Position numbers and translations under genes: made by a program. This document shows, one piece after another, positions 33,845-58,982 of a stretch of 64,000 nt of DNA. Each line of letters begins with the position of its first letter. Positions within the stretch are counted from its first letter, which is position 1. Source of the DNA: a virus; the IMG/VR virus record IMGVR_UViG_3300035698_015907, one strand, 5' to 3'. Under the pieces are notes generated by a model. That model ran no database searches and was not told the DNA's origin. It worked only from the letters and a program-made list of their open reading frames with translations.

Positions 33845-34037
33845 AAAAGAAGTTTTTATATTTTTAGATGCTTTAAGGCGCAGTGGCGCTGTGAATATGT
33901 TTAGTGCTTCTTCATATATTGAAGAAGAGTTTGATCTACCTAACAAAGAATCAAAACAGCTGTTAGTAGATTAGATGGAAACATTTGATGATGAAATATC
34001 TGTTGAAGATAGAATAAAACAACTAAAAAGTAGTTGA
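33834..34037 (+). CDS. Small conserved phage protein with in-frame TAG at codon 47
   Basis: FLDALRRSGAVNMF...KQLLVD*METFDDE; frame stays open to TGA at 34035. Confidence 0.6.
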
Positions 34038-34062
34038 CAAACATAAAACTCTGATATATAAT
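34034..34062 (+). promoter_or_regulatory. Sigma70-type promoter for the Ro60-like gene
   Basis: TTGACA-N17-TATAAT. Confidence 0.85.
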
Positions 34063-34129: not shown

Positions 34130-35635
34130 ATGAACAAGTTTATGAAGTCACTAAAGACAAATCAAGAAAAGAAGCTAACCGAGAATGGAGGAATTACTTT
34201 TGATTCCTCGGGTCAATCTAATGTTGATCTGTTTTTCCAAATCGGTGCACTTCGTGGTCAAGAACCAGATCGGCTTTATAGACTTTTTTCTAAGGCTTAC
34301 GGCGAAAATAAAGAACTAGCAATTAGAACTATGTTGTGGGTTCGTGATGTTAGGGGAGGAGCTGGTGAACGCAAGATTTTTAGGGATCTACTAACCTGGC
34401 TCGAAACTAATGATCGCGATATTTTGGTAGATATTCTTCCAGCGATTCCAGAGCTGGGACGTTGGGACGATCTTTTGGTTTTCGGTACTAAGAAATTCAA
34501 GACCAATGCTTTCAATATGATTGAACAAGCTTTGGGCGAAGCAAATGGTCTTTGTGCAAAATGGATGCCTCGAAAGGGCGTCGTTGCAAATGAACTTAGA
34601 AACCATATGAAACTTTCACCGAAGCGATATAGAAAACTTCTAGTTGAATTAACTAATGTTGTCGAAAATCAGCTTTGCGCTAAGCAGTGGGAAGACGTTA
34701 ATTATGAAAAAGTTCCTTCTGTAGCTCAGTCTAGATATAATAGAACTTTCCTACGACATGATGAGGAAAGGTATCGTGAATTTAGTGAAAAAGCTAAGAC
34801 ATATGCTGAAGCTGTAGCATCAGGTGAACCGATTCCAGATGATGTTGAAAAGGTAAAAATCAATGCTGGTGCCGTATATCCATATGATGTTTTGAAGTCT
34901 GTCGTTAATAGTTATTTTGGCGGCTATGGTTATGGAGCACAAGATAATAGTTTCAGTGTCGATACTGTTAGAGCACAGTGGTTGACTTTGCCTAATTATA
35001 TAGGAAATAATAGTGTTCTTCCTATGGTTGATGTTTCAGGATCAATGACTTCATTGATTGGTTCGAAAAATCTAAGTGCGTTGCAAGTTGCATTGTCACT
35101 TGGTTTGTATATGTCTGGAAAGAACAGCGGCGCATTTCATAATGCTCTATTGACTTTCACTTCTGTGCCGGAGTTGATTCACTTGAAGGGTGAAGATATT
35201 ATTGCTCATATAGAGCAGATGTCTAAAGATCGCTGGTATGGATCTACAAACGTTTCTGCAGCATTTACAAAGATTTTGTCTTTCGCAGTTAAGAATGCTG
35301 TTCCACAGGAAGATATGCCTGAATATATCATAGTATTTTCTGATATGGAATTTGATCGTGCTGATCGTACTGGTGGTGAAACTGCATCTGAAGATATGGA
35401 AATCCAGTTTTCTAGTGCTGGCTATAGAGTTCCTAAAGTTGTTTGGTGGAATATCCAATCACGTCAGGATAATGTACCAGTATCATTTAATAAGAATGGT
35501 GCTGCTCTAGTTTCTGGTTTTTCGCCATCTCTTGCAAAGAACATCATGAGTGGTGAAAGTATTAATCCAACTGAAATGATGCTAAAAGTTATCATGGACG
35601 AAAGATACGATCTAAAGAAGTATGCAGCCGCTTAA
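34130..35635 (+). CDS. Ro60/TROVE-like + vWA protein (DUF2828 family)
   Basis: TENG, DLFF, RDVRGGAGER, GRWDDLL, AKWMPR, VDVSGSM MIDAS, STN, FSDMEFD, WN, SGFSP. Confidence 0.88.
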   Translation: MNKFMKSLKTNQEKKLTENGGITFDSSGQSNVDLFFQIGALRGQEPDRLYRLFSKAYGENKELAIRTMLWVRDVRGGAGERKIFRDLLTWLETNDRDILVDILPAIPELGRWDDLLVFGTKKFKTNAFNMIEQALGEANGLCAKWMPRKGVVANELRNHMKLSPKRYRKLLVELTNVVENQLCAKQWEDVNYEKVPSVAQSRYNRTFLRHDEERYREFSEKAKTYAEAVASGEPIPDDVEKVKINAGAVYPYDVLKSVVNSYFGGYGYGAQDNSFSVDTVRAQWLTLPNYIGNNSVLPMVDVSGSMTSLIGSKNLSALQVALSLGLYMSGKNSGAFHNALLTFTSVPELIHLKGEDIIAHIEQMSKDRWYGSTNVSAAFTKILSFAVKNAVPQEDMPEYIIVFSDMEFDRADRTGGETASEDMEIQFSSAGYRVPKVVWWNIQSRQDNVPVSFNKNGAALVSGFSPSLAKNIMSGESINPTEMMLKVIMDERYDLKKYAAA

Positions 35636-39160: not shown

Positions 39161-39236
39161 GCCCATCAAGCTAACCAGGTGGAAGCGCTTGTCTGAAGAA
39201 CAAGAGGGCTCCGATCAATACGGAGGATGGGCACCA
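39161..39236 (+). tRNA. tRNA-Phe(GAA)
   Basis: Loop CTGAAGA, CCA. Confidence 0.9.
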
Positions 39237-39243
39237 TATTCAA

Positions 39244-39309
39244 GGTATACTTACAGCAACTATTGCCTTAAGGGCATTCAAACTTGAACTTTGAAGAAGA
39301 ATGTATACC
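39244..39309 (+). ncRNA. Y-RNA-like ACAGCA-motif RNA 1
   Basis: GGTATAC-TTACAGCAA...GTATACC terminal stem enclosing TTCAAA-CTTGAAC-TTTGAA anticodon-like hairpin. Confidence 0.65.
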
Positions 39310-39322
39310 GATAACTACATAA

Positions 39323-39399
39323 TGCCCTCTAGCACAATTGGTAGTGGCGCCTGGCTCTGAACCAGGAGGTTCTAGGTTCGAGACCTGGGAGGGCAACCA
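39323..39399 (+). tRNA. tRNA-Gln(CUG)
   Basis: U1:A72, loop CTCTGAA, CCA. Confidence 0.9.
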
Positions 39400-39488
39400 T
39401 TTTAAGGATATGAAATGTCGATATTGTTTGTTCCAGTATTAATAGGAATATCATTAGCGTTTCATATCCTTCGTACTAAAGATACTAA

Positions 39489-39551
39489 AGGATCATTACA
39501 GCATTAATACTATTTCAGATAATAAGGCGCTGTTCAGACAGCATTGATCCT
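39489..39551 (+). ncRNA. Y-RNA-like ACAGCA-motif RNA 2
   Basis: AGGATCA-TTACAGCA...TGATCCT terminal stem, internal GCTGT-TCAG-ACAGC hairpin. Confidence 0.6.
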
Positions 39552-39564
39552 GAAATTATAATTA

Positions 39565-39641
39565 TTGTTTTGCTGCAGCATAATTTATTAGCTGGTTCGA
39601 TTCCGACTATCCCCGCCATATGGGGATTTTGGTAAAAACAA
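39565..39641 (+). ncRNA. Y-RNA-like RNA 3 (variant GCAGCA motif, permuted T arm + acceptor)
   Basis: TTGTTTT-GCTGCAGCA...AAAACAA; GGTTCGATTCC T loop, ATCCCC-GCCATAT-GGGGAT loop-closed acceptor. Confidence 0.5.
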
Positions 39642-39653
39642 ACCAGAAAAATT

Positions 39654-39741
39654 GGAAGATAAACTGAGTAGGTCACTCAGGGCTCCCTGGAAAGGAGTAC
39701 GGTCCCACTGGACTGCGTTTCGAGTACGCTGTCTTCCGCCA
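39654..39741 (+). tRNA. tRNA-Ser(GGA)
   Basis: Class II, loop CTGGAAA, G73. Confidence 0.9.
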
Positions 39742-39754
39742 TTAAGGATGTAAA

Positions 39755-39937
39755 ATGTCAGCATTAATTTCTTTTGTGATAGTCGCAGCTGTTGCGTTGC
39801 TTATAGCAGAAATTTGTATTTTTATTGTTAGAAAAGTACCTATCATAGATAACGCAATCAAACAGATTGTAGAATGGGCAATTTATGCCGTAACTGCAAT
39901 TTATCTTCTCATGGAAATTTTGAAGTTAGTAGGATAA
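39755..39937 (+). CDS. Small two-TM membrane protein
   Basis: AAGGA RBS, two hydrophobic helices. Confidence 0.6.
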   Translation: MSALISFVIVAAVALLIAEICIFIVRKVPIIDNAIKQIVEWAIYAVTAIYLLMEILKLVG

Positions 39938-40017
39938 TAAATCTAACAGGGTTAGACATCGTTTCGAAAACGATTGGGTCCTAACGGACTGGGGATCGAG
40001 ACCTCTATTATCCGCCA
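39932..40017 (+). tRNA. tRNA-Ser(CGA)
   Basis: Class II, loop TTCGAAA, G73. Confidence 0.88.
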
Positions 40018-40023
40018 TCTATT

Positions 40024-40110
40024 GGAGAGTCAACCTAACAGGGGTTAGGGCCCGCCTTGAAAGCGGATCGGTCCTTCGGGACTGGGGTTCGAGTCCTCGG
40101 CTCTCCGCCA
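40024..40110 (+). tRNA. tRNA-Ser(UGA)
   Basis: Class II, loop CTTGAAA, G73. Confidence 0.93.
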
Positions 40111-40142
40111 TCTAATTAAATTTAATAACATATAATAAACGG

Positions 40143-40173
40143 TTGACAACGGATGCTAACCGTGGTATAAATA
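40143..40173 (+). promoter_or_regulatory. Composite early (TTGACA-N17-TATAAA) / late (TATAAATA) promoter for tmRNA
   Basis: Both motifs overlap at the -10 element. Confidence 0.7.
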
Positions 40174-40176
40174 AAG

Positions 40177-40573
40177 TCATGATCAAGTTGTTAAGTCAGC
40201 AGGTTCATAGCAGATGGTTTCAGGACCCGGGGGCAGTACCCGGCGCCTCCACCATGAGTACACAGTAACAAAATATATTTTGTTATAACAAAATATTGGT
40301 CAGGACTTCCGCGGCCCTGGTTTTATTATAGTTGTTAAACGATCTCACTCGCGATCACTCGCGATGAGATGCAGAATCTATAATAGTTATCTGTGTATTC
40401 TTGATGGGGGCGAAATAGGTTTCGACTGATGCAGTAAACTAGAAAATCGATCATCGTTTTGCACACGCCAGTGCTCGTAAGATAGATGCCAACGATAATG
40501 ACATCGCTGTTGAGATGGCCCTAGCGGCTTAATCTCTCGGGGTTCGAAGGTACCTGGCAACAGAAACCTTCAC
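40177..40573 (+). ncRNA. ssrA: Permuted two-piece tmRNA (alphaproteobacterial type); tag ANDNDIAVEMALAA (40488-40532)
   Basis: Acceptor piece ends GGACCCGGGGGCAGTACCCGGCGCCTCCACCA (40254); coding piece starts GGGGGCGAAATAGGTTTCGAC (40406); outer ends approximate. Confidence 0.93.
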
Positions 40574-40587
40574 TTAATTTTGGCTAA

Positions 40588-40710
40588 AGGATTGTTACAG
40601 CAAAATTTATGCTTGGCTTTCAACCACCTTGTCGTAGGTTCGAATCCTACCTTCTCCAATTGGGGAAGTAGCTCAGTTCGGTAGAGCGGGTAACGCAAAA
40701 AAGCAATCCT
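40588..40710 (+). ncRNA. Y-RNA-like ACAGCA-motif RNA 4 with circularly permuted tRNA module (YrlA-like topology)
   Basis: AGGATTGTT-ACAGCAA...AGCAATCCT stem; order is T arm, loop-closed acceptor CTTCTCC-AATT-GGGGAAG, then D arm. Confidence 0.75.
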
Positions 40711-40742
40711 GACCAGCATACCACGAATTAATAATTTGAATT

Positions 40743-40819
40743 GCCCCGATAGCTCAACGGTTAGAGCAGATGTTTCTAAAGCATTGTGTTGTGGGTTCGA
40801 ATCCCACTCGGGAGCGCCA
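40743..40819 (+). tRNA. Amber-anticodon tRNA(CUA)
   Basis: GATGT-TTCTAAA-GCATT anticodon arm, canonical D and T arms, bulged A in acceptor stem, GCCA end. Confidence 0.75.
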
Positions 40820-40905
40820 TTTGAGGAACTATAATGAATAATTTTTAGATTAATATGGAGGTGATGATGTAGATCATTAAGAAACCTCCATAAAGTACAT
40901 ATCAA

Positions 40906-41429: not shown

Positions 41430-42370
41430 TATATAACAAGAATTGCGTGTGGCAAATGGATGGTGTTTAGCCATCGCCTACTAATCAAGGAATAACCTGT
41501 CTCTTAAAAGACAAACGAGATTAGATGCAGCAAGAATTGGCGGCGTGACGTCATTAGGATAAGTTCCGTAAGGAACCCAATGCAGGAATTCCTACATACC
41601 TGCTCTGAAAGGCCATTTACGCAGACCTGACCGACATCGCGAGATGTGCTTCGTTTAGAAAACGGACGGAGATAAAATGGAAGTCAGGCAGAGGAAATAG
41701 CATATGTTTATGTGCCACCTCGGTGGGAACACAAGCATATGAAGAGATCTGGAAAATCCTCTCTGCAACCAAACTGACCATATTCTACGGTAAAGGGTAG
41801 TTCATTTGTTCGAGATCGCAATCAAGAGCTTATGAGCAGTTTTGCGGGTTAAGGGTTTCACTTGTAGTGAAGTCATTGATCCAAAGAAATCAGCTGAGTA
41901 GTCGGCAGACGAAAGGTATGAGGAGTGTTGTATTCTGTATCTAACAAGATTCGGAGCAACTGAGATAGCACTTTTCTGTAGGTTAGCATAGCTCAAACTA
42001 GAGCAACTCGGTTTTAACGAGTAGGTTGGTGGTCTGATAGCCACCTGTTTATTTAAACGCAAAGACTATCTCAGATAACCACGTAAAGTGGCAAATGGTT
42101 GAACCTTCGGGTAATCAACCCCAAAGAGACTCGCAAGGTCAAATTGGTTCGTATTTAATGTTTCATAAAGGGAAGCACCCTTGAATGGCCCGCAAGGTCA
42201 ATGAGAATATGAATGCGGAGTAGTGGTTATTGTTAAGCCTAACGCATGGCTTTAAATTGCGCCATCGATGTTTTACCGGAAAATTCTGGTGGATGTCTTG
42301 TTAATCTCACTCGCAAGGTGTAGAGTACGGCAGGAAGAAGCATCATATAAACGGGTAATCTCACCGTTTT
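41430..42370 (+). ncRNA. Large structured ncRNA, GOLLD-like
   Basis: ~0.9 kb without a credible ORF; many GNRA/UUCG-capped hairpins (CGCAAG x3, CGTAAG, CGCGAG, CTTCGG); within a phage tRNA array; family assignment from recollection, not searched. Confidence 0.6.
41982..42053 (+). tRNA. tRNA-Lys(UUU)-like module embedded in the large ncRNA
   Basis: GCTC/GAGC D arm, ACTCG-GTTTTAA-CGAGT, GGTGG/CCACC T stem; weak acceptor stem, no CCA. Confidence 0.5.
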
Positions 42371-42875: not shown

Positions 42876-42882
42876 GTTTTAT

Positions 42883-42971
42883 GGGATACTTACAGCAAAA
42901 TTTACATTAGCAATGGTAGCTAATCTGTCTTTAAAACAGATGATTCGGTTCAGATCCGACAAGTGTATCCC
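42883..42971 (+). ncRNA. Y-RNA-like ACAGCA-motif RNA 5 with D, anticodon (UUA) and T arms
   Basis: GGGATAC-TTACAGCAA...GTATCCC stem; TTAGC/GCTAA, TCTGT-CTTTAAA-ACAGA, TCGG-TTCAGAT-CCGA; no CCA. Confidence 0.7.
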
Positions 42972-42995
42972 GCTTTAATTTAAAAGGTTTTTAGA

Positions 42996-44910: not shown

Positions 44911-45420
44911 GTGAACAAACTATTCGTTTTCATACGCAGTGATTTAGAGTCTATGTCAGTTGGTAAAGCGTGCGCTCAAGTTGCTCATGCTGCTAGCATG
45001 GTATCTCATGTTTATTTTAGCATTGATGTTTTAGAAGAATATTATTCTTGGTCCGAATCTGCTCATGATTATGCAAAAAGCATAGACAAAGAAAACAAAC
45101 TTCTGCCATCATATCTTGGCTTTGGTACTACGGTCGTTTTAGATGGAAAGAATTTAGATCCTTATACTATTGTTGCTGCCCGACCAGAATTTAAGAATAA
45201 ATTCCCCGAAACAATCGAAGAATCAATTGAATCATTAGGTCAAGCTTCTGGTGTCGTTAGAGACCCTACATATCCATTAAGAGATGGTGATGTGGTTCAT
45301 AGTATAGATATTCCTACATGTTTCTGGGTTTTTGGTGATCCTTCTTCAGATTTTGAACTTTATGCATTTCTCAGAAAGTTTTCATTATATAATGGTAACG
45401 AGATAAGCTCTAATAAATAA
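44911..45420 (+). CDS. Peptidyl-tRNA hydrolase 2-like protein
   Basis: RSDLESMSVGKACAQVAHAA, GTTVVL, D.TYP. Confidence 0.75.
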   Translation: MNKLFVFIRSDLESMSVGKACAQVAHAASMVSHVYFSIDVLEEYYSWSESAHDYAKSIDKENKLLPSYLGFGTTVVLDGKNLDPYTIVAARPEFKNKFPETIEESIESLGQASGVVRDPTYPLRDGDVVHSIDIPTCFWVFGDPSSDFELYAFLRKFSLYNGNEISSNK

Positions 45421-50909: not shown

Positions 50910-51383
50910 TTGACTGTAATAGCATATAGAAATGGTATAATAGCTTCTGATAGTCTTATGGCTGATACTAATAGTGGTAGTGTACATTTCACCACTGAAA
51001 AATTATTCAGAATGGCTAATGGGGAAGTTATAGGTTGCGCTGGAGATATAAGAGAGTATACTAGATTTATTGAATGGTATGAAAGTGGCGAATTCATCGA
51101 CTCTTGGGAACCTCATGAAGAAGATACGTTTGAAGCCATATGTGCGTACTCAAATGGTTGTATTCATTATTTTGACAATTCAACGAGAGCAATAGAAATA
51201 AAAAATGATTACATAGCAATTGGTATTGCAGCAGATGTTGCAATGGGTGCTATGTATATGGGAGCTGATGCAGACATTGCAGTTAAAGCAGCTTGTGAAT
51301 TGAATGTGTGGTGTCGGCTGCCGATTAGAATAGAAAAAATATCAAAAGAGGAATCAAATAATGACTTTAGTACAACATCCTAA
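50910..51383 (+). CDS. HslV/proteasome-beta-like Ntn hydrolase
   Basis: MTVIAY..IASDS, GCAG, AIG..A.GAM..GA. Confidence 0.7.
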   Translation: MTVIAYRNGIIASDSLMADTNSGSVHFTTEKLFRMANGEVIGCAGDIREYTRFIEWYESGEFIDSWEPHEEDTFEAICAYSNGCIHYFDNSTRAIEIKNDYIAIGIAADVAMGAMYMGADADIAVKAACELNVWCRLPIRIEKISKEESNNDFSTTS

Positions 51384-52536
51384 ACTTTACAAAAAAGACG
51401 ATCATGAAAATGTTAGAGTGTGGTGGGTAGAAACTGATGAAGATCAGTATCGAGTAGTGTATGGTGTACTCGATGGTAAAATGGTTGATTCTGATTGGAA
51501 GACTGCGGTACCTAAGAATGTTGGTAAAGTGAATGGAACTACAGGAATATCTCAGGCTATTTCTGAAAAGGATTCTCTTTATAAAAAGCAGCTGAAGCAG
51601 GGTAAGTATCACGAATCCATCGATGATGTTGATGAGGATGGATACTTTGAACCTATGCTCGCTACAGTGTGGACTAATTCTAAAAAGAAGCCCATTGGTA
51701 AAAAAATTCTAGAAGATGCATTTGAATCTAAAAATTATAGAATTTTTGTTCAGCCAAAATTAGATGGTATTCGTAATATTACTACATCTAGCGAGATGAG
51801 ATCACGCAATGGAGAAAAGAGAGTATCATGTCCGCACATTCATAATGCTCTTGCTGATTTCTTTGTACAGCATCCTGATGTTATTCTTGATGGAGAATTG
51901 TACAATCATGAATACCATGATAATTTCAATCAGATACAATCTCACGTTCTAAAAACTAAGCCTGGTCTTATTGATCTTGCCGAGACCGCTAAAAATATCA
52001 AATATTATGTTTATGATGCATATATTCTAAGTCTGCCTACAGTTCCATATAACCAGCGTAACATATTAATTAATGAACTTGTTGGTACTCCCGGTATTGA
52101 AGTAGTAAAAACTCATGAAGTTCTTAGTATGGAAGAACTCGATGAAATTTACGGAGAAATTCTAAACCAGAATTATGAAGGAATGGTTGCTAGAATTAAT
52201 GGTTCATATGAACCCGGTAAGCGTTCTAAGCTCCTCATAAAGCGCAAAGAATTCTTTGATGAAGAATTTGAAATTGTTGATATTATGGAAGGTACTGGCA
52301 ATTGGAACGGAAAAGCTAAATCTGTGAAGTTTAAACTTCCAGATCGTGATCTACCTTATGATAAATTGCCTGAATCTGGTATTAGAGGTGATGAAGCAGA
52401 AATGTCTGAGCTCCTAAGAAATAAAGGCAAGTATATTGGCGGTGATGTTACTGTTAGATACCCCAATAAAACTCCTGATGGGAAGCCGCGGTTTGGTGTT
52501 GCAATCGCTTTTTATGAAGGTAAAAGAAAGTCTTAA
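51361..52536 (+). CDS. gp30: ATP-dependent DNA ligase
   Basis: QPKLDGIR, LDGELY, YEGMVAR, KRK, KPRFG. Confidence 0.93.
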   Translation: MTLVQHPKLYKKDDHENVRVWWVETDEDQYRVVYGVLDGKMVDSDWKTAVPKNVGKVNGTTGISQAISEKDSLYKKQLKQGKYHESIDDVDEDGYFEPMLATVWTNSKKKPIGKKILEDAFESKNYRIFVQPKLDGIRNITTSSEMRSRNGEKRVSCPHIHNALADFFVQHPDVILDGELYNHEYHDNFNQIQSHVLKTKPGLIDLAETAKNIKYYVYDAYILSLPTVPYNQRNILINELVGTPGIEVVKTHEVLSMEELDEIYGEILNQNYEGMVARINGSYEPGKRSKLLIKRKEFFDEEFEIVDIMEGTGNWNGKAKSVKFKLPDRDLPYDKLPESGIRGDEAEMSELLRNKGKYIGGDVTVRYPNKTPDGKPRFGVAIAFYEGKRKS

Positions 52537-58907: not shown

Positions 58908-58982
58908 GGCCCAGTCGTCTAGTGGCTAGGACACTTGCCTTTCAAGCAGGGAAAGAGGGATCGAAACCCTTCTGGGCTACCA
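58908..58982 (+). tRNA. tRNA-Glu(UUC)
   Basis: Loop CTTTCAA, CCA. Confidence 0.92.

What the first reader, a model, noticed from the sequence alone, without database searches (positions are those of the whole stretch)
40588..40710. Circularly permuted tRNA body inside the ACAGCA stem (YrlA-like topology plus an extra anticodon loop)
Seen: the 5'-3' order is stem, ACAGCAA, TGG-CTTTCAA-CCA (7-nt Glu UUC-like loop), GTAGG-TTCGAAT-CCTAC (T arm), CTTCTCC-AATT-GGGGAAG (acceptor closed by a loop), TA-GCTC-AGTTCGGTA-GAGC (D arm), stem. The T arm precedes the D arm, so this is not a linear tRNA. Established: YrlA has this T / closed-acceptor / D order. Inference: an unchargeable tRNA elbow mimic. Copy 39565-39641 shows the same permutation without a D arm.
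Basis: partly seen in the sequence, partly recalled or inferred. Interest (0 to 1): 0.8.

Follow-up and report, generated by a model that had tools for sequence, protein, structure and literature searches.

The report
Inside-out tRNA on Ro60-type handle
This unannotated 124-base stretch of a phage tRNA cluster is a real small-RNA gene: a complete glutamate-type tRNA written inside-out and clamped by a short tagged stem, belonging to a widespread, uncatalogued family that travels with a Ro60-like ring protein the phage also encodes.

Summary
The order is closing stem, UUACAGCAA, anticodon-like hairpin, T arm, loop-closed 7-bp acceptor stem, D arm, closing stem.

It is not a decayed junction of two tRNA genes. 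A covariance model built from 45 homologs in other phages, without this window, scores it 92.7 bits (E 5e-17). The best tandem-tRNA junctions in the window reach 42.6 bits.

I collected 90 relatives. All helices covary: 94% of cells are paired against 59% in shuffles. The RNA ends leave the tRNA body between nucleotides 29 and 30, inside the anticodon stem. When the order is restored in silico, ARAGORN calls a tRNA in 66 of 90; this copy reads tRNA-Glu(UUC).

Rfam YrlA matches only the tRNA-like core (46 bits, gathering score 69). The Rsr-binding motif of YrlA is replaced by NCAGCAA.

The likely partner is ORF 34130-35635 (Pfam DUF2828 + DUF7788). Its model matches Ro60 structures over the full length. 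Homologs lay on the same strand as the RNA in 21 of 21 RNA-protein pairs. Its Bas63 homolog gp130 is reported to counter the Ppl defence.

Binding, processing and function are untested. This scan has met the same RNA-protein system many times on other DNA. I found no Rfam family or paper describing the RNA.

The parts
40588..40594 (+). P1 closing stem, 5' strand (AGGAUUG). It may extend to 40596 through U-G and U-A pairs.
   Evidence: It pairs with 40704-40710. All 7 P1 pairs show compensatory changes in the family, and 96.7% of cells are paired.
40595..40603 (+). Handle motif UUACAGCAA. It is single-stranded and lies directly 3' of the P1 5' strand.
   Evidence: The CAGCAA core is kept in CM-found relatives that were not selected by the search pattern. 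It matches 9 of 11 positions of the Dictyostelium Class I motif, including all five invariant positions.
40604..40614 (+). 5' linker (AAUUUAUGCUU).
   Evidence: Its length and sequence vary across the family.
40615..40625 (+). Anticodon-like hairpin GG-CUUUCAA-CC. This is tRNA nt 30-40, with anticodon UUC, U33 and A37.
   Evidence: The hairpin pairs are kept in 75.5% of cells, with compensatory changes. After un-permuting, ARAGORN reads tRNA-Glu(ttc).
40626..40628 (+). Upper anticodon stem, 3'-side strand ACC (nt 41-43).
   Evidence: It pairs with GGU at 40689-40691. This helix was not used to select sequences. It is paired in 83.6% of cells, with CG/UA/AU/GC exchanges.
40629..40633 (+). Variable loop UUGUC (5 nt).
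   Evidence: Alignments to YrlA and to the family models.
40634..40650 (+). T arm GUAGG-UUCGAAU-CCUAC.
   Evidence: The T arm is 99% paired in the family.
40651..40668 (+). Acceptor stem closed by a loop: CUUCUCC - AAUU - GGGGAAG. It has 7 bp. The A at 40658 sits at the discriminator position. No CCA is encoded.
   Evidence: All 7 pairs covary and 93.7% of cells are paired. Closure is strongly enriched over shuffles.
40669..40688 (+). U8-A9, D arm GCUC-AGUUCGGUA-GAGC, and G26.
   Evidence: U8, A14, A21 and G18-G19 are kept in the family.
40689..40691 (+). Upper anticodon stem, 5'-side strand GGU (nt 27-29). The RNA leaves the tRNA body after this point.
   Evidence: It pairs with 40626-40628.
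40692..40703 (+). 3' linker AACGCAAAAAAG.
   Evidence: It is A-rich in relatives. The Klebsiella phage KP13-26 homolog has the almost identical UACGCAAAAAAGC.
40704..40711 (+). P1 3' strand CAAUCCU followed by G. Many relatives share the ..CCUG ending.
34130..35635 (+). Candidate protein partner. It is a 501-aa Ro60-like protein (Pfam DUF2828 + DUF7788, vWA with an invariant DxSxS MIDAS motif). It lies 4.95 kb upstream on the same strand, behind a perfect sigma-70 consensus promoter at 34034-34062.
   Evidence: Pfam. AF2 model with pLDDT 84. The 12 best Foldseek PDB hits are all Ro60/TROVE, aligned over the full length. Linkage to the RNA family. Promoter.
39243..39310 (+). Sister RNA with the same frame (GGUAUAC - UUACAGCAA - non-tRNA cargo - GUAUACC).
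   Evidence: R2 scores it 23.9 bits, which reflects the frame only.
39489..39555 (+). Possible sister frame (GGAUCA - UUACAGCAU - cargo - UGAUCC). Its 5' part overlaps the end of a 30-codon ORF, so this copy is less certain.
39565..39646 (+). Weak D-less relative. It has the handle variant CUGCAGCAUAA, a T arm, and a closed acceptor with GCCA in the loop.
   Evidence: R2 gives 23.9 bits and the alignment is. The fold is ambiguous for the closing stem.
42882..42972 (+). Sister RNA with the same frame (GGAUAC - UUACAGCAA - cargo with a T-arm-like hairpin - GUAUCC). It lies about 0.5 kb (515 nt) downstream of the GOLLD RNA.
   Evidence: R2 gives 29.5 bits.

Best explanation
Region 40587-40711 encodes a stable small non-coding RNA of the Y-RNA type. 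It has two modules.

Module 1 is a handle: a 7-9 bp closing stem plus single-stranded UUACAGCAA. Sister RNAs in this window and hundreds of phage RNAs share it. It is the probable docking site for the phage's Ro60-like ring protein (ORF 34130-35635).

Module 2 is the cargo: a complete tRNA-Glu(UUC)-like cloverleaf in circularly permuted order. Its acceptor ends are joined by a 4-nt loop. The chain enters and leaves between nt 29 and 30 of the anticodon stem.

The RNA is probably cut out of the tmRNA/tRNA operon transcript. The tRNA-shaped module would then present a tRNA look-alike to enzymes that recognise tRNA shape, such as RNase P, the CCA-adding enzyme, modification enzymes or host anticodon nucleases. 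This would either tether the Ro60-like ring to them or act as a decoy, as part of phage RNA quality control or counter-defence.

Shown here: the fold (by covariation), family membership, the Ro60 fold of the neighbouring protein, and the RNA-protein gene linkage. Inferred: expression, protein binding to the handle, and the effector role.
For: 1. Structure. RNAalifold and pair counts on 52 and on 90 homologs give 92-94% paired cells, against 59-62% in shuffles and 33-44% when the partner is slid. All six helices show compensatory changes, including the 3-bp upper anticodon stem that was never used for selection. G-U outnumbers A-C by 123 to 44, which fits RNA on this strand.

2. Not chance. The leave-one-out model gives 92.7 bits, against at most 42.6 bits for tandem-tRNA junctions. 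Among the pattern matches, 52 of 130 have both the outer stem and the closed acceptor, against 2.0% of shuffles.

3. tRNA completeness. After un-permuting at 29|30, ARAGORN calls a tRNA in 66 of 90 relatives, with many anticodons. This copy reads Glu(UUC).

4. Partner protein.
- Pfam assigns DUF2828 + DUF7788.
- The AF2 model has pTM 0.83.
- The top 12 PDB hits are all Ro60/Rsr/phage Ro60 over about 520-570 columns, with TM up to 0.60.

5. Linkage. Loci fetched only by an RNA pattern hold a homolog of the protein in 36 or more cases. The protein gene was on the same strand as the RNA in 21 of 21 RNA-protein pairs (19 loci), 166-5615 nt away. The same pairing occurs in three cultured phages:
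- Klebsiella phage KP13-26.
- Mycobacteriophage LeBron gp53, annotated 'Ro-like RNA binding protein'.
- E. coli phage Bas63.

6. Function hint. Bas63 gp130 is 41% identical to the window ORF. Its deletion is reported to sensitise the phage to the Ppl defence (10.1101/2024.10.10.617714).

7. The handle is a separate module. Sister RNAs with the same frame carry non-tRNA cargo, in this window and in KP13-26.
Against: - There are no expression or end-mapping data for this phage.
- No test shows that the protein binds the handle. The linkage is genomic only.
- The protein gene lies 4.95 kb away, further than the roughly 0.7-kb median seen elsewhere.
- The family alignments were seeded with a pattern that forces ACAGCA, the T loop and part of the D arm, so conservation of those letters is partly circular.
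- CM-made alignments lean towards the model's structure.
- The effector (RNase P, a nuclease or another enzyme) is a guess by analogy with YrlA.
Confidence: 0.65

Rival explanations
1. The mature form is a two-piece RNA. RNase P cuts 5' of G40662 in the acceptor loop. The upstream 3' end is then trimmed and CCA-tailed. The result is a nicked tRNA-like molecule with a tRNA-type 3' end, held together by the acceptor, anticodon and P1 helices. The layout would parallel the two-piece tmRNA encoded next door. This is a variant of the best explanation and concerns processing only.
For: - The acceptor stem has exactly 7 bp here and in nearly all relatives.
- M. smegmatis YrlA, the one YrlA with a 7-bp stem, is cut by RNase P in vitro and is cleaved and CCA-tailed in vivo (PMC4201824).
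- NCCA directly follows the acceptor 3' strand in 14 of 90 relatives, against about 1.4 expected. It is often NCCA plus a single further base.
- The weak copy at 39565 has GCCA in its loop.
Against: - This copy has a 4-nt AAUU loop and no CCA. The canonical tRNAs of this window aligned do encode CCA.
- Most relatives lack CCA and have 2-6 nt loops.
- S. Typhimurium YrlA and D. radiodurans Yrn1 are not cut (PMC4201824).
Confidence: 0.2
2. It is a genuine circularly permuted tRNA-Glu gene. The handle and linkers are excised, nt 29 and 30 are ligated into a circle, and the circle is opened at the acceptor loop. The product is a working tRNA, as in Cyanidioschyzon merolae.
For: The body has all tRNA features, and ARAGORN accepts the un-permuted sequence, here and in 73% of relatives with many anticodons.
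Against: - A canonical tRNA-Glu(UUC) already exists at 58908-58982.
- The body is at most 69% identical to any window tRNA and lacks the encoded CCA that the others have.
- The same handle frames non-tRNA cargo.
- The handle is the most conserved part and tracks a Ro60-like gene. That fits a retained module, not an excised one.
- No bulge-helix-bulge motif is evident at 29|30.
- The loop is only 4 nt.
- From general knowledge, bacteria lack the splicing endonuclease pathway.
Confidence: 0.07
3. It is a cis-acting processing or stability element of the polycistronic tmRNA/tRNA transcript. For example, it could be an RNase entry site or a protective clamp. It would have no dedicated protein partner and no life as a free RNA.
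For: - It lies 13 nt after the tmRNA and 32 nt before tRNA(CUA), with no terminator between them.
- The base of P1 is semi-conserved (UAGG../..CCUG).
Against: - A processing signal would not need a full, covarying tRNA cloverleaf with a varying anticodon.
- It would not need strict same-strand linkage to a Ro60-like gene in diverse phages, including mycobacteriophage LeBron, whose copy in the 6.4-kb stretch examined is not flanked by annotated tRNA genes.
Confidence: 0.06
4. It is the junction of two decayed tandem tRNA genes and has no function.
For: - Real tandem junctions resemble the T / acceptor / D order.
- A Synechococcus phage tRNA-Ser/Pro junction scores 31.3 bits with Rfam YrlA.
- Junctions in this window score up to 42.6 bits with the family model.
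Against: - There is a 50-bit gap to those controls.
- The acceptor strands are complementary and are closed by 4 nt.
- The outer stem and handle are conserved, with compensatory changes, in 90 relatives from different phages.
Confidence: 0.01

Closest known systems
YrlA, the tRNA-like Y RNA of bacteria and mycobacteriophages bound by Ro60/Rsr (Rfam RF02553; Chen et al. 2014, PMC4201824; structure preprint 10.1101/312249)
   Same: - The order is T arm, loop-closed acceptor stem, D arm, closed by a short anticodon-stem-like helix.
- The tRNA tertiary-pair nucleotides are kept.
- The gene lies on the same strand as a Ro60-fold protein gene.
- The Rfam model aligns positions 23-89 at 46 bits.
   Different: - The score is below the gathering score (46 against 69).
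- The 5' GNCGAA(N)G motif and the long Rsr-binding stem are absent. A 7-bp clamp plus NCAGCAA replaces them.
- A true anticodon hairpin is retained, so the chain exits at nt 29|30.
- The partner is a DUF2828/DUF7788 Ro60 paralog, not Pfam TROVE.
Dictyostelid Class I RNAs (Rfam RF01414; Kjellin et al. 2021, PMC7919456)
   Same: - A short stem joins the 5' and 3' ends.
- A conserved single-stranded motif lies directly after the 5' strand: CCUUACAGCAA in Dictyostelium, UGUUACAGCAA here. All five invariant positions match.
- The rest of the RNA is variable.
- The 3' end is ..CUGU there, and ..CCUG here and in many relatives (..CCUGUU in several).
- Two short KP13-26 sisters hit RF01414 at 25 and 23.5 bits.
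   Different: - Class I RNAs are 42-65 nt and carry no tRNA body.
- The only direct binder reported is the RRM protein CIBP.
- They have been reported only in Dictyostelia.
- The Rfam model gives no hit in window 39200-39700, which holds three sister copies, nor in 39400-40900, which holds this element.
- Common descent or a shared partner is untested.
Circularly permuted tRNA genes of Cyanidioschyzon merolae and Thermofilum pendens (from general knowledge: Soma et al. 2007; Chan et al. 2011)
   Same: The 3' half is encoded before the 5' half, the acceptor ends are joined by a short linker, and the full cloverleaf is recoverable in silico.
   Different: - Those genes are matured through a bulge-helix-bulge cut, a circular intermediate and RNase P/Z into working tRNAs.
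- Here the flanks form a conserved protein-type handle that is shared with non-tRNA RNAs.
- The breakpoint is at 29|30.
- A canonical isoacceptor is present.
Two-piece (permuted) tmRNA, present 13 nt upstream at 40139-40574
   Same: It is a permuted tRNA-like domain in which T arm and acceptor 3' strand precede the acceptor 5' strand. It is matured by cleavage in the intervening loop.
   Different: The tmRNA carries CCA, a tag reading frame and pseudoknots. It has a long intervening segment, no anticodon arm and no NCAGCAA handle.
Bas63 gp130, a Ro60-like counter of the Ppl defence (PhageMaP preprint 10.1101/2024.10.10.617714)
   Same: It belongs to the same protein family (41% identity, E 1.6e-91). 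It lies directly upstream of the tRNA array. A family RNA (R1 62.8 bits) lies 1 kb downstream on the same strand.
   Different: The authors only guessed that some annotated tRNAs might be Y RNAs. The RNA found here is unannotated in Bas63 and overlaps a small reverse-strand 'hypothetical protein' (bas63_0137).

Membership tests
YrlA (Rfam RF02553) | tRNA-like domain in the order T arm, closed acceptor stem-loop, D arm, closed by a short helix. | tested here: met
   cmscan aligns model positions 23-89 at 46.0 bits with no non-canonical pairs. The helices covary in homologs.
YrlA (Rfam RF02553) | Score at or above Rfam's gathering threshold of 69 bits. | tested here: not met
   This element scores 46.0 bits. 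Relatives in KP13-26 score 40.1 and 32.5 bits, and the LeBron relative 39.8 bits. A plain tandem-tRNA junction scores 31.3 bits.
YrlA (Rfam RF02553) | GNCGAA(N0-1)G motif near the 5' end, the proposed Rsr contact (PMC4201824). | tested here: not met
   The 5' part, 40587-40625, contains no GNCGAA. UUACAGCAA occupies the equivalent place. Model positions 1-22 and 90-114 are unaligned.
YrlA (Rfam RF02553) | Encoded within 4 kb of a Ro60 ortholog, on the same strand. | tested here: inconclusive
   A protein with the Ro60 fold lies on the same strand 4.95 kb upstream. By Pfam it is DUF2828 + DUF7788, not TROVE. Relatives usually lie 0.2-3 kb away.
NCAGCAA-handle RNAs linked to DUF2828 (uncatalogued; defined here and in earlier notes of this scan) | A 7-10 bp closing stem of variable sequence with conserved pairing, followed by NCAGCAA within 0-3 nt of the 5' strand. 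| tested here: met
   P1 is 40588-40594 with 40704-40710, and UUACAGCAA is at 40595-40603. All P1 pairs covary.
NCAGCAA-handle RNAs linked to DUF2828 (uncatalogued; defined here and in earlier notes of this scan) | A DUF2828/vWA Ro60-like gene nearby on the same strand. | tested here: met
   The ORF is 34130-35635. The family-wide pairing was on the same strand in 21 of 21 RNA-protein pairs.
NCAGCAA-handle RNAs linked to DUF2828 (uncatalogued; defined here and in earlier notes of this scan) | Recognised by a family covariance model built without the sequence. | tested here: met
   R2 gives 92.7 bits, E 5e-17.
Dictyostelium Class I RNA (RF01414) | Short terminal stem plus the 11-nt motif CCUUACAGCAA next to its 5' strand. 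| tested here: met
   9 of 11 positions are identical, including the invariant U3, C6, C9, A10 and A11.
Dictyostelium Class I RNA (RF01414) | Length 42-65 nt, score at or above the Rfam gathering score of 41.5 bits, dictyostelid origin with a DUSE promoter. | tested here: not met
   This element is 124 nt, from a phage. RF01414 gives no hit in 39400-40900 or in 39200-39700. Only the short KP13-26 sisters reach 25 bits.
Functional circularly permuted tRNA gene | 3' half upstream of the 5' half, with a full cloverleaf recoverable. | tested here: met
   ARAGORN calls tRNA-Glu(ttc) on the un-permuted sequence.
Functional circularly permuted tRNA gene | Processing motif at the junction (bulge-helix-bulge), a circular intermediate and a mature aminoacylated tRNA. 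| not testable with these tools
   This needs RNA data. By inspection the flanks form a conserved handle rather than a BHB, and a canonical tRNA-Glu(UUC) exists.

The most novel reading that the evidence does not exclude
The stem + NCAGCAA handle is the universal docking tag of the DUF2828 branch of Ro60 proteins. The Class I RNAs of Dictyostelium, unexplained since 2004 and thought unique to social amoebae, would then be the same kind of RNA. One of the four proteins pulled down with Class I RNA DdR-21 is DDB_G0281243, of unknown function (bioRxiv 10.1101/2020.04.05.026054). I could not check whether it is a DUF2828/vWA protein.

Within that frame, this copy would display a whole tRNA-Glu. 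RNase P could nick it into a two-piece, CCA-tailed tRNA tethered to the ring. Such a molecule could act as a decoy or adaptor against tRNA-targeting host defences.
Probability: 0.3. Interest if true: 0.85.

Novelty: new variant of a known kind. Interest (0 to 1): 0.7.

Why it matters
Ro60/Y-RNA particles are known from animals, about 5% of bacteria and a few mycobacteriophages. This element belongs to a much larger, uncatalogued viral branch.

- The partner protein family has at least 7,900 clusters at 90% identity.
- It occurs in 711 sequenced phages, including Felix O1-like, Listeria, Staphylococcus, Campylobacter, Vibrio and cluster L mycobacteriophages.
- Its RNAs are missed by tRNA finders and by Rfam, and are sometimes overwritten by spurious ORFs.

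One family member, Bas63 gp130, is reported to counter a bacterial defence. The RNAs are therefore candidates for the missing half of that mechanism.

The complete inside-out tRNA with an intact anticodon loop suggests a way of presenting tRNA shape to enzymes. The shared handle offers a testable explanation for the Dictyostelium Class I RNAs.

Tried and rejected
- No whole genome is held for this window.
- Megablast of neighbouring structural genes against cultured phages found nothing.
- The MFE fold of the single sequence is only mildly better than shuffles (z -2.26), so I did not rely on it.
- The Rfam score alone was rejected as evidence, because a real tRNA-Ser/Pro junction scores 31.3 bits with YrlA.
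- ACAGCA as a bare hexamer is not enriched in the window: 37 found against 27 expected. Only the stem-adjacent copies count.
- Rfam's Class I model gives no hit in 39200-39700.
- The body is not a recent copy of the phage's own tRNA-Glu or of any other window tRNA (at most 69% identity).
- The Dictyostelium link could not be tested:
  - Avesson et al. 2011 is not held.
  - The supplements of Chen et al. 2014 are not held.
  - The Atlas and protein searches returned only viral or metagenomic DUF2828 clusters without eukaryote names.
  - No paper in the library annotates DDB_G0281243.
- The sequence profile of the protein against PDB chains gave only weak TROVE hits (E 0.044). The Ro60 assignment rests on the fold search.
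- Complex prediction was not used, because RNA cannot be a chain there.
Full report
**Context**

The window is part of a large phage genome. No whole genome is held. A 23-kb stretch on the + strand carries about 31 tRNA genes, among them a suppressor tRNA(CUA) at 40743-40816. It also carries a two-piece alpha-type tmRNA (40139-40574; 108.6 bits) and a GOLLD RNA (41920-42367; 172 bits). The finding lies 13 nt after the tmRNA and 32 nt before tRNA(CUA).

**Observation**

The exact coordinates are in the parts list.

Rfam's YrlA model aligns the T arm, the loop-closed acceptor stem, the D arm and a short closing helix. It covers model positions 23-89 at 46.0 bits, E 1.1e-8 in a 1.5-kb search. This is below the gathering score of 69. 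The outer, Rsr-binding part of the model is not matched.

The thermodynamic fold of the single sequence closes the same outer stem, T arm and acceptor hairpin. It is only modestly better than shuffles (z -2.26).

**Is it a decayed junction of two tRNA genes?**

This rival deserved a real control, because tandem tRNA genes naturally give the T / acceptor / D order.
- A tRNA-Ser/tRNA-Pro junction of Synechococcus phage S-WAM2 was hit by blastn with my query.
- That junction scores 31.3 bits with the YrlA model.

A CM score of 46 is therefore not decisive by itself. The comparative data are.

**Relatives**

blastn found a homolog in Klebsiella phage KP13-26.
- It has a different outer stem (GUAGCU/AGCUAC).
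- It has the same AUACAGCAA after the stem.
- It has the same T / closed acceptor / D body.
- It has an almost identical 3' linker (ACGCAAAAAAGC).
- It sits among five tandem 'stem + NCAGCAA + cargo + stem' units.

A pattern scan of IMG/VR (ACAGCA ... Of 130 unique matches, 52 have both an outer stem of at least 7 bp abutting the motif and a closed acceptor. Only 2.0% of shuffled controls do.

**Covariation**

Alignment A1 holds 52 sequences. RNAalifold recovers P1, the T arm, the 7-bp acceptor and the D arm, and 19 of 23 pairs show double changes.

Pair counting on my fuller structure gives 91.7% paired cells. Shuffles give 61.8%, and sliding the partner gives 33-42%.

The 3-bp helix between the strand just before the variable loop and the strand just after the D arm played no part in selecting sequences. 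It still shows CG/AU/UA/GC exchanges.

**Covariance models**

Model R1 finds 90 members at E <= 1e-7 in 99 sources, often several per phage. On that alignment 94.0% of cells pair, against 58.9% in shuffles. G-U outnumbers A-C by 123 to 44, as expected for RNA on this strand.

The leave-one-out model R2 uses 45 sequences and contains neither this window nor KP13-26. It scores the finding 92.7 bits, E 5e-17. The best tandem-tRNA junctions of the same window score 42.6 and 31.3 bits. The junction hypothesis is rejected.

**Anatomy: a whole tRNA, opened at 29|30**

In most members the hairpin upstream of the T arm has a 7-nt loop with U at the second position and a purine at the sixth. Examples are CUUUUAA, CUGUCAA, UUUGGGA and, in this copy, CUUUCAA.

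Its 2-bp stem stacks on the 3-bp helix described above. Together they make a composite 5-bp anticodon stem. The 5' strand of that stem is discontinuous:
- nt 27-29 come from the strand after the D arm;
- nt 30-31 come from the leader.

The RNA chain therefore enters and leaves the tRNA between nt 29 and 30, and the acceptor ends are joined by a loop.

I rejoined the halves in a script. ARAGORN then calls a tRNA in 66 of 90 members. The anticodons are diverse: Pro UGG 7, Thr UGU 6, Asn GUU 5, Gly UCC 5, Lys UUU 4, Asp GUC 4, and others. The finding itself is called tRNA-Glu(UUC).

It is also what distinguishes this family from YrlA, where a long stem replaces the anticodon arm.

The body is not a recent copy of the phage's canonical tRNA-Glu(UUC) at 58908-58982, nor of any other window tRNA. 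The best identity is 69%. Unlike the canonical tRNAs aligned, it encodes no CCA.

**The partner protein**

I tested that lead.
- Pfam gives DUF2828 (90 bits) and DUF7788 (151 bits), with weak vWA matches.
- An alignment of 29 homologs taken from the RNA-selected loci has an invariant DxSxS MIDAS motif.
- The AlphaFold model has pLDDT 84 and pTM 0.83.
- Its 12 best matches in the PDB are all Ro60/TROVE, aligned over the full length at E 1e-7 to 1e-5 with TM up to 0.60. They include Xenopus and human Ro60, Deinococcus Rsr and Thermus phage phiLo Ro60.
- A perfect TTGACA-17-TATAAT promoter precedes the gene.

**Linkage of RNA and protein**

The 120 loci were fetched by an RNA pattern only, yet 36 or more of them hold a homolog of this protein. 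In 21 of 21 RNA-protein pairs (19 loci) where a strictly defined RNA and the gene lie in one locus, the two are on the same strand. They are 166-5615 nt apart, with a median near 0.7 kb.

The pairing also holds in three cultured phages.
- KP13-26: the homolog lies directly upstream of the five RNAs.
- Mycobacteriophage LeBron: gp53, annotated 'Ro-like RNA binding protein', is DUF2828 + DUF7788. The RNA lies 110 nt downstream. It scores 61.3 bits with R1 and only 39.8 bits with YrlA.
- E. coli phage Bas63: gp130 is 41% identical, E 1.6e-91. The RNA at 82780-82906 scores 62.8 bits with R1. It lies under a reverse-strand 'hypothetical protein' annotation.

The protein family is very large. It has at least 7,919 clusters at E <= 1e-5 and occurs in 711 phage records.

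**What is known**

Chen et al. 2014 (PMC4201824) defined YrlA by three features:
- a 5' GNCGAA(N)G motif;
- the T / AS / D tRNA-like domain;
- a position within 4 kb of a Ro60 ortholog, on the same strand.

They showed that M. smegmatis YrlA, the only one with a 7-bp acceptor stem, is cut by RNase P and CCA-tailed in vivo.

The PhageMaP preprint reports that deleting Bas63 gene 130 sensitises the phage to the Ppl defence. Its authors guessed that some annotated tRNAs might be Y RNAs.

I found no Rfam family and no paper that describes the NCAGCAA handle RNAs.

**The Class I RNA resemblance**

Rfam's Dictyostelium Class I model hits two short KP13-26 sisters at 25 and 23.5 bits, below its gathering score of 41.5. 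This is due to the motif.

Kjellin et al. 2021 describe Class I RNAs as follows:
- a short 5'/3' stem;
- the 11-nt motif CCUUACAGCAA next to the 5' strand, with U3, C6, C9, A10 and A11 invariant;
- a variable remainder;
- a 3' CUGU end.

The element here reads UGUUACAGCAA and ends ..CCUG. CM-found relatives that were not forced by my pattern keep CAGCAA while the preceding base varies.

This is a resemblance, not a demonstrated relationship. The Class I model gives no hit in this window. I also could not check whether Dictyostelium has a DUF2828 protein, or whether the pull-down protein DDB_G0281243 is one.

**Mechanism**

The most economical reading is a Y-RNA-type molecule with two modules.
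- The handle is constant and is shared with sister RNAs carrying other cargo, at 39243-39310 and 42882-42972 and in KP13-26. It would dock the Ro60-like ring.
- The cargo is a full tRNA look-alike. It would engage proteins that read tRNA shape.

Whether the acceptor loop is opened by RNase P is open.
- For: the stem has 7 bp, there is the M. smegmatis precedent, and NCCA follows the acceptor 3' strand in 14 of 90 relatives.
- Against, for this copy: the loop is AAUU and no CCA is encoded.

A working permuted tRNA gene is unlikely, for the reasons listed under the rival explanations.

**The second copy**

Region 39565-39646 aligns to the family model with a handle variant, a T arm with one mismatch, a closed acceptor with GCCA in the loop, and a deleted D arm. 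It scores 23.9 bits, and its closing stem competes with a local hairpin. I regard it as a plausible minimal or degenerate member.

**Earlier findings of this scan**

Look-ups after my own analysis show that this scan has reported the same RNA-protein system on many other genomes. Those reports include permuted-tRNA cargo and the Class I resemblance.

I used two of those notes as leads and tested both here: the Ro60-like ORF in this window and the Bas63 link. The remaining notes agree with what I found independently.

**Verdict**

It needs one correction: this is a sister of YrlA, not a member, and it carries a whole tRNA rather than an elbow. It is a new variant of a known kind (the Ro60/Y-RNA particle with a tRNA mimic). 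Expression, binding and function are untested.

Noticed in passing
39654-39741, 39932-40017, 40023-40110 (+): Three unannotated tRNA-Ser-like genes (anticodons GGA, CGA, UGA) with long variable arms and an unusually long D stem. Each ends in an encoded GCCA. ARAGORN misses all three. The third is picked up only by Rfam's tRNA-Sec model, at 47.7 bits against a gathering score of 47, although its anticodon is not UCA.
   Followed up: partly
41920-42367 (+), with 42882-42972: A GOLLD RNA (172 bits) lies in the tRNA region. About 0.5 kb (515 nt) downstream is another stem + UUACAGCAA RNA whose cargo holds a T-arm-like hairpin.
   Followed up: partly
40139-40574 (+): A two-piece (permuted) alpha-type tmRNA with tag ANDNDIAVEMALAA. 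A TTGACA-17-TATAAA promoter-like site at 40143-40171 precedes it. This suggests an alphaproteobacterial host. The finding probably shares this transcript.
   Followed up: partly
40743-40816 (+): A suppressor tRNA with anticodon CUA, which ARAGORN labels 'Pyl', lies directly after the finding. Other notes on this genome mention in-frame TAG codons.
   Followed up: no
39416-39508 (+): A 30-codon hydrophobic ORF (MSILFVPVLIGISLAF...) ends inside the stem + UUACAGCAU of the putative sister RNA at 39489-39555. That copy may therefore be a coincidence or may have a dual use.
   Followed up: no
L128 (Bas63, MZ501086 82748-82900, - strand): The annotated 'hypothetical protein' bas63_0137 lies on the opposite strand, exactly over the family RNA found by the model at 82780-82906. 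It is probably a spurious ORF call.
   Followed up: partly
44911-45420 (+) and 51361-52536 (+): A PTH2-type peptidyl-tRNA hydrolase domain and an ATP-dependent ligase-domain protein lie within the tRNA region. No RtcB or polynucleotide kinase turned up among the 17 ORFs I scanned against Pfam.
   Followed up: partly
L005 6493-6632 (-): An IMG/VR contig carries a family member whose closing stem and handle (AAGGAUUGUUACAGCAA ... CCAAUCCU) are nearly identical to those of the finding. Its anticodon loop (CUUAUAA) and its acceptor stem differ. This suggests that cargo is exchanged on a fixed handle.
   Followed up: no
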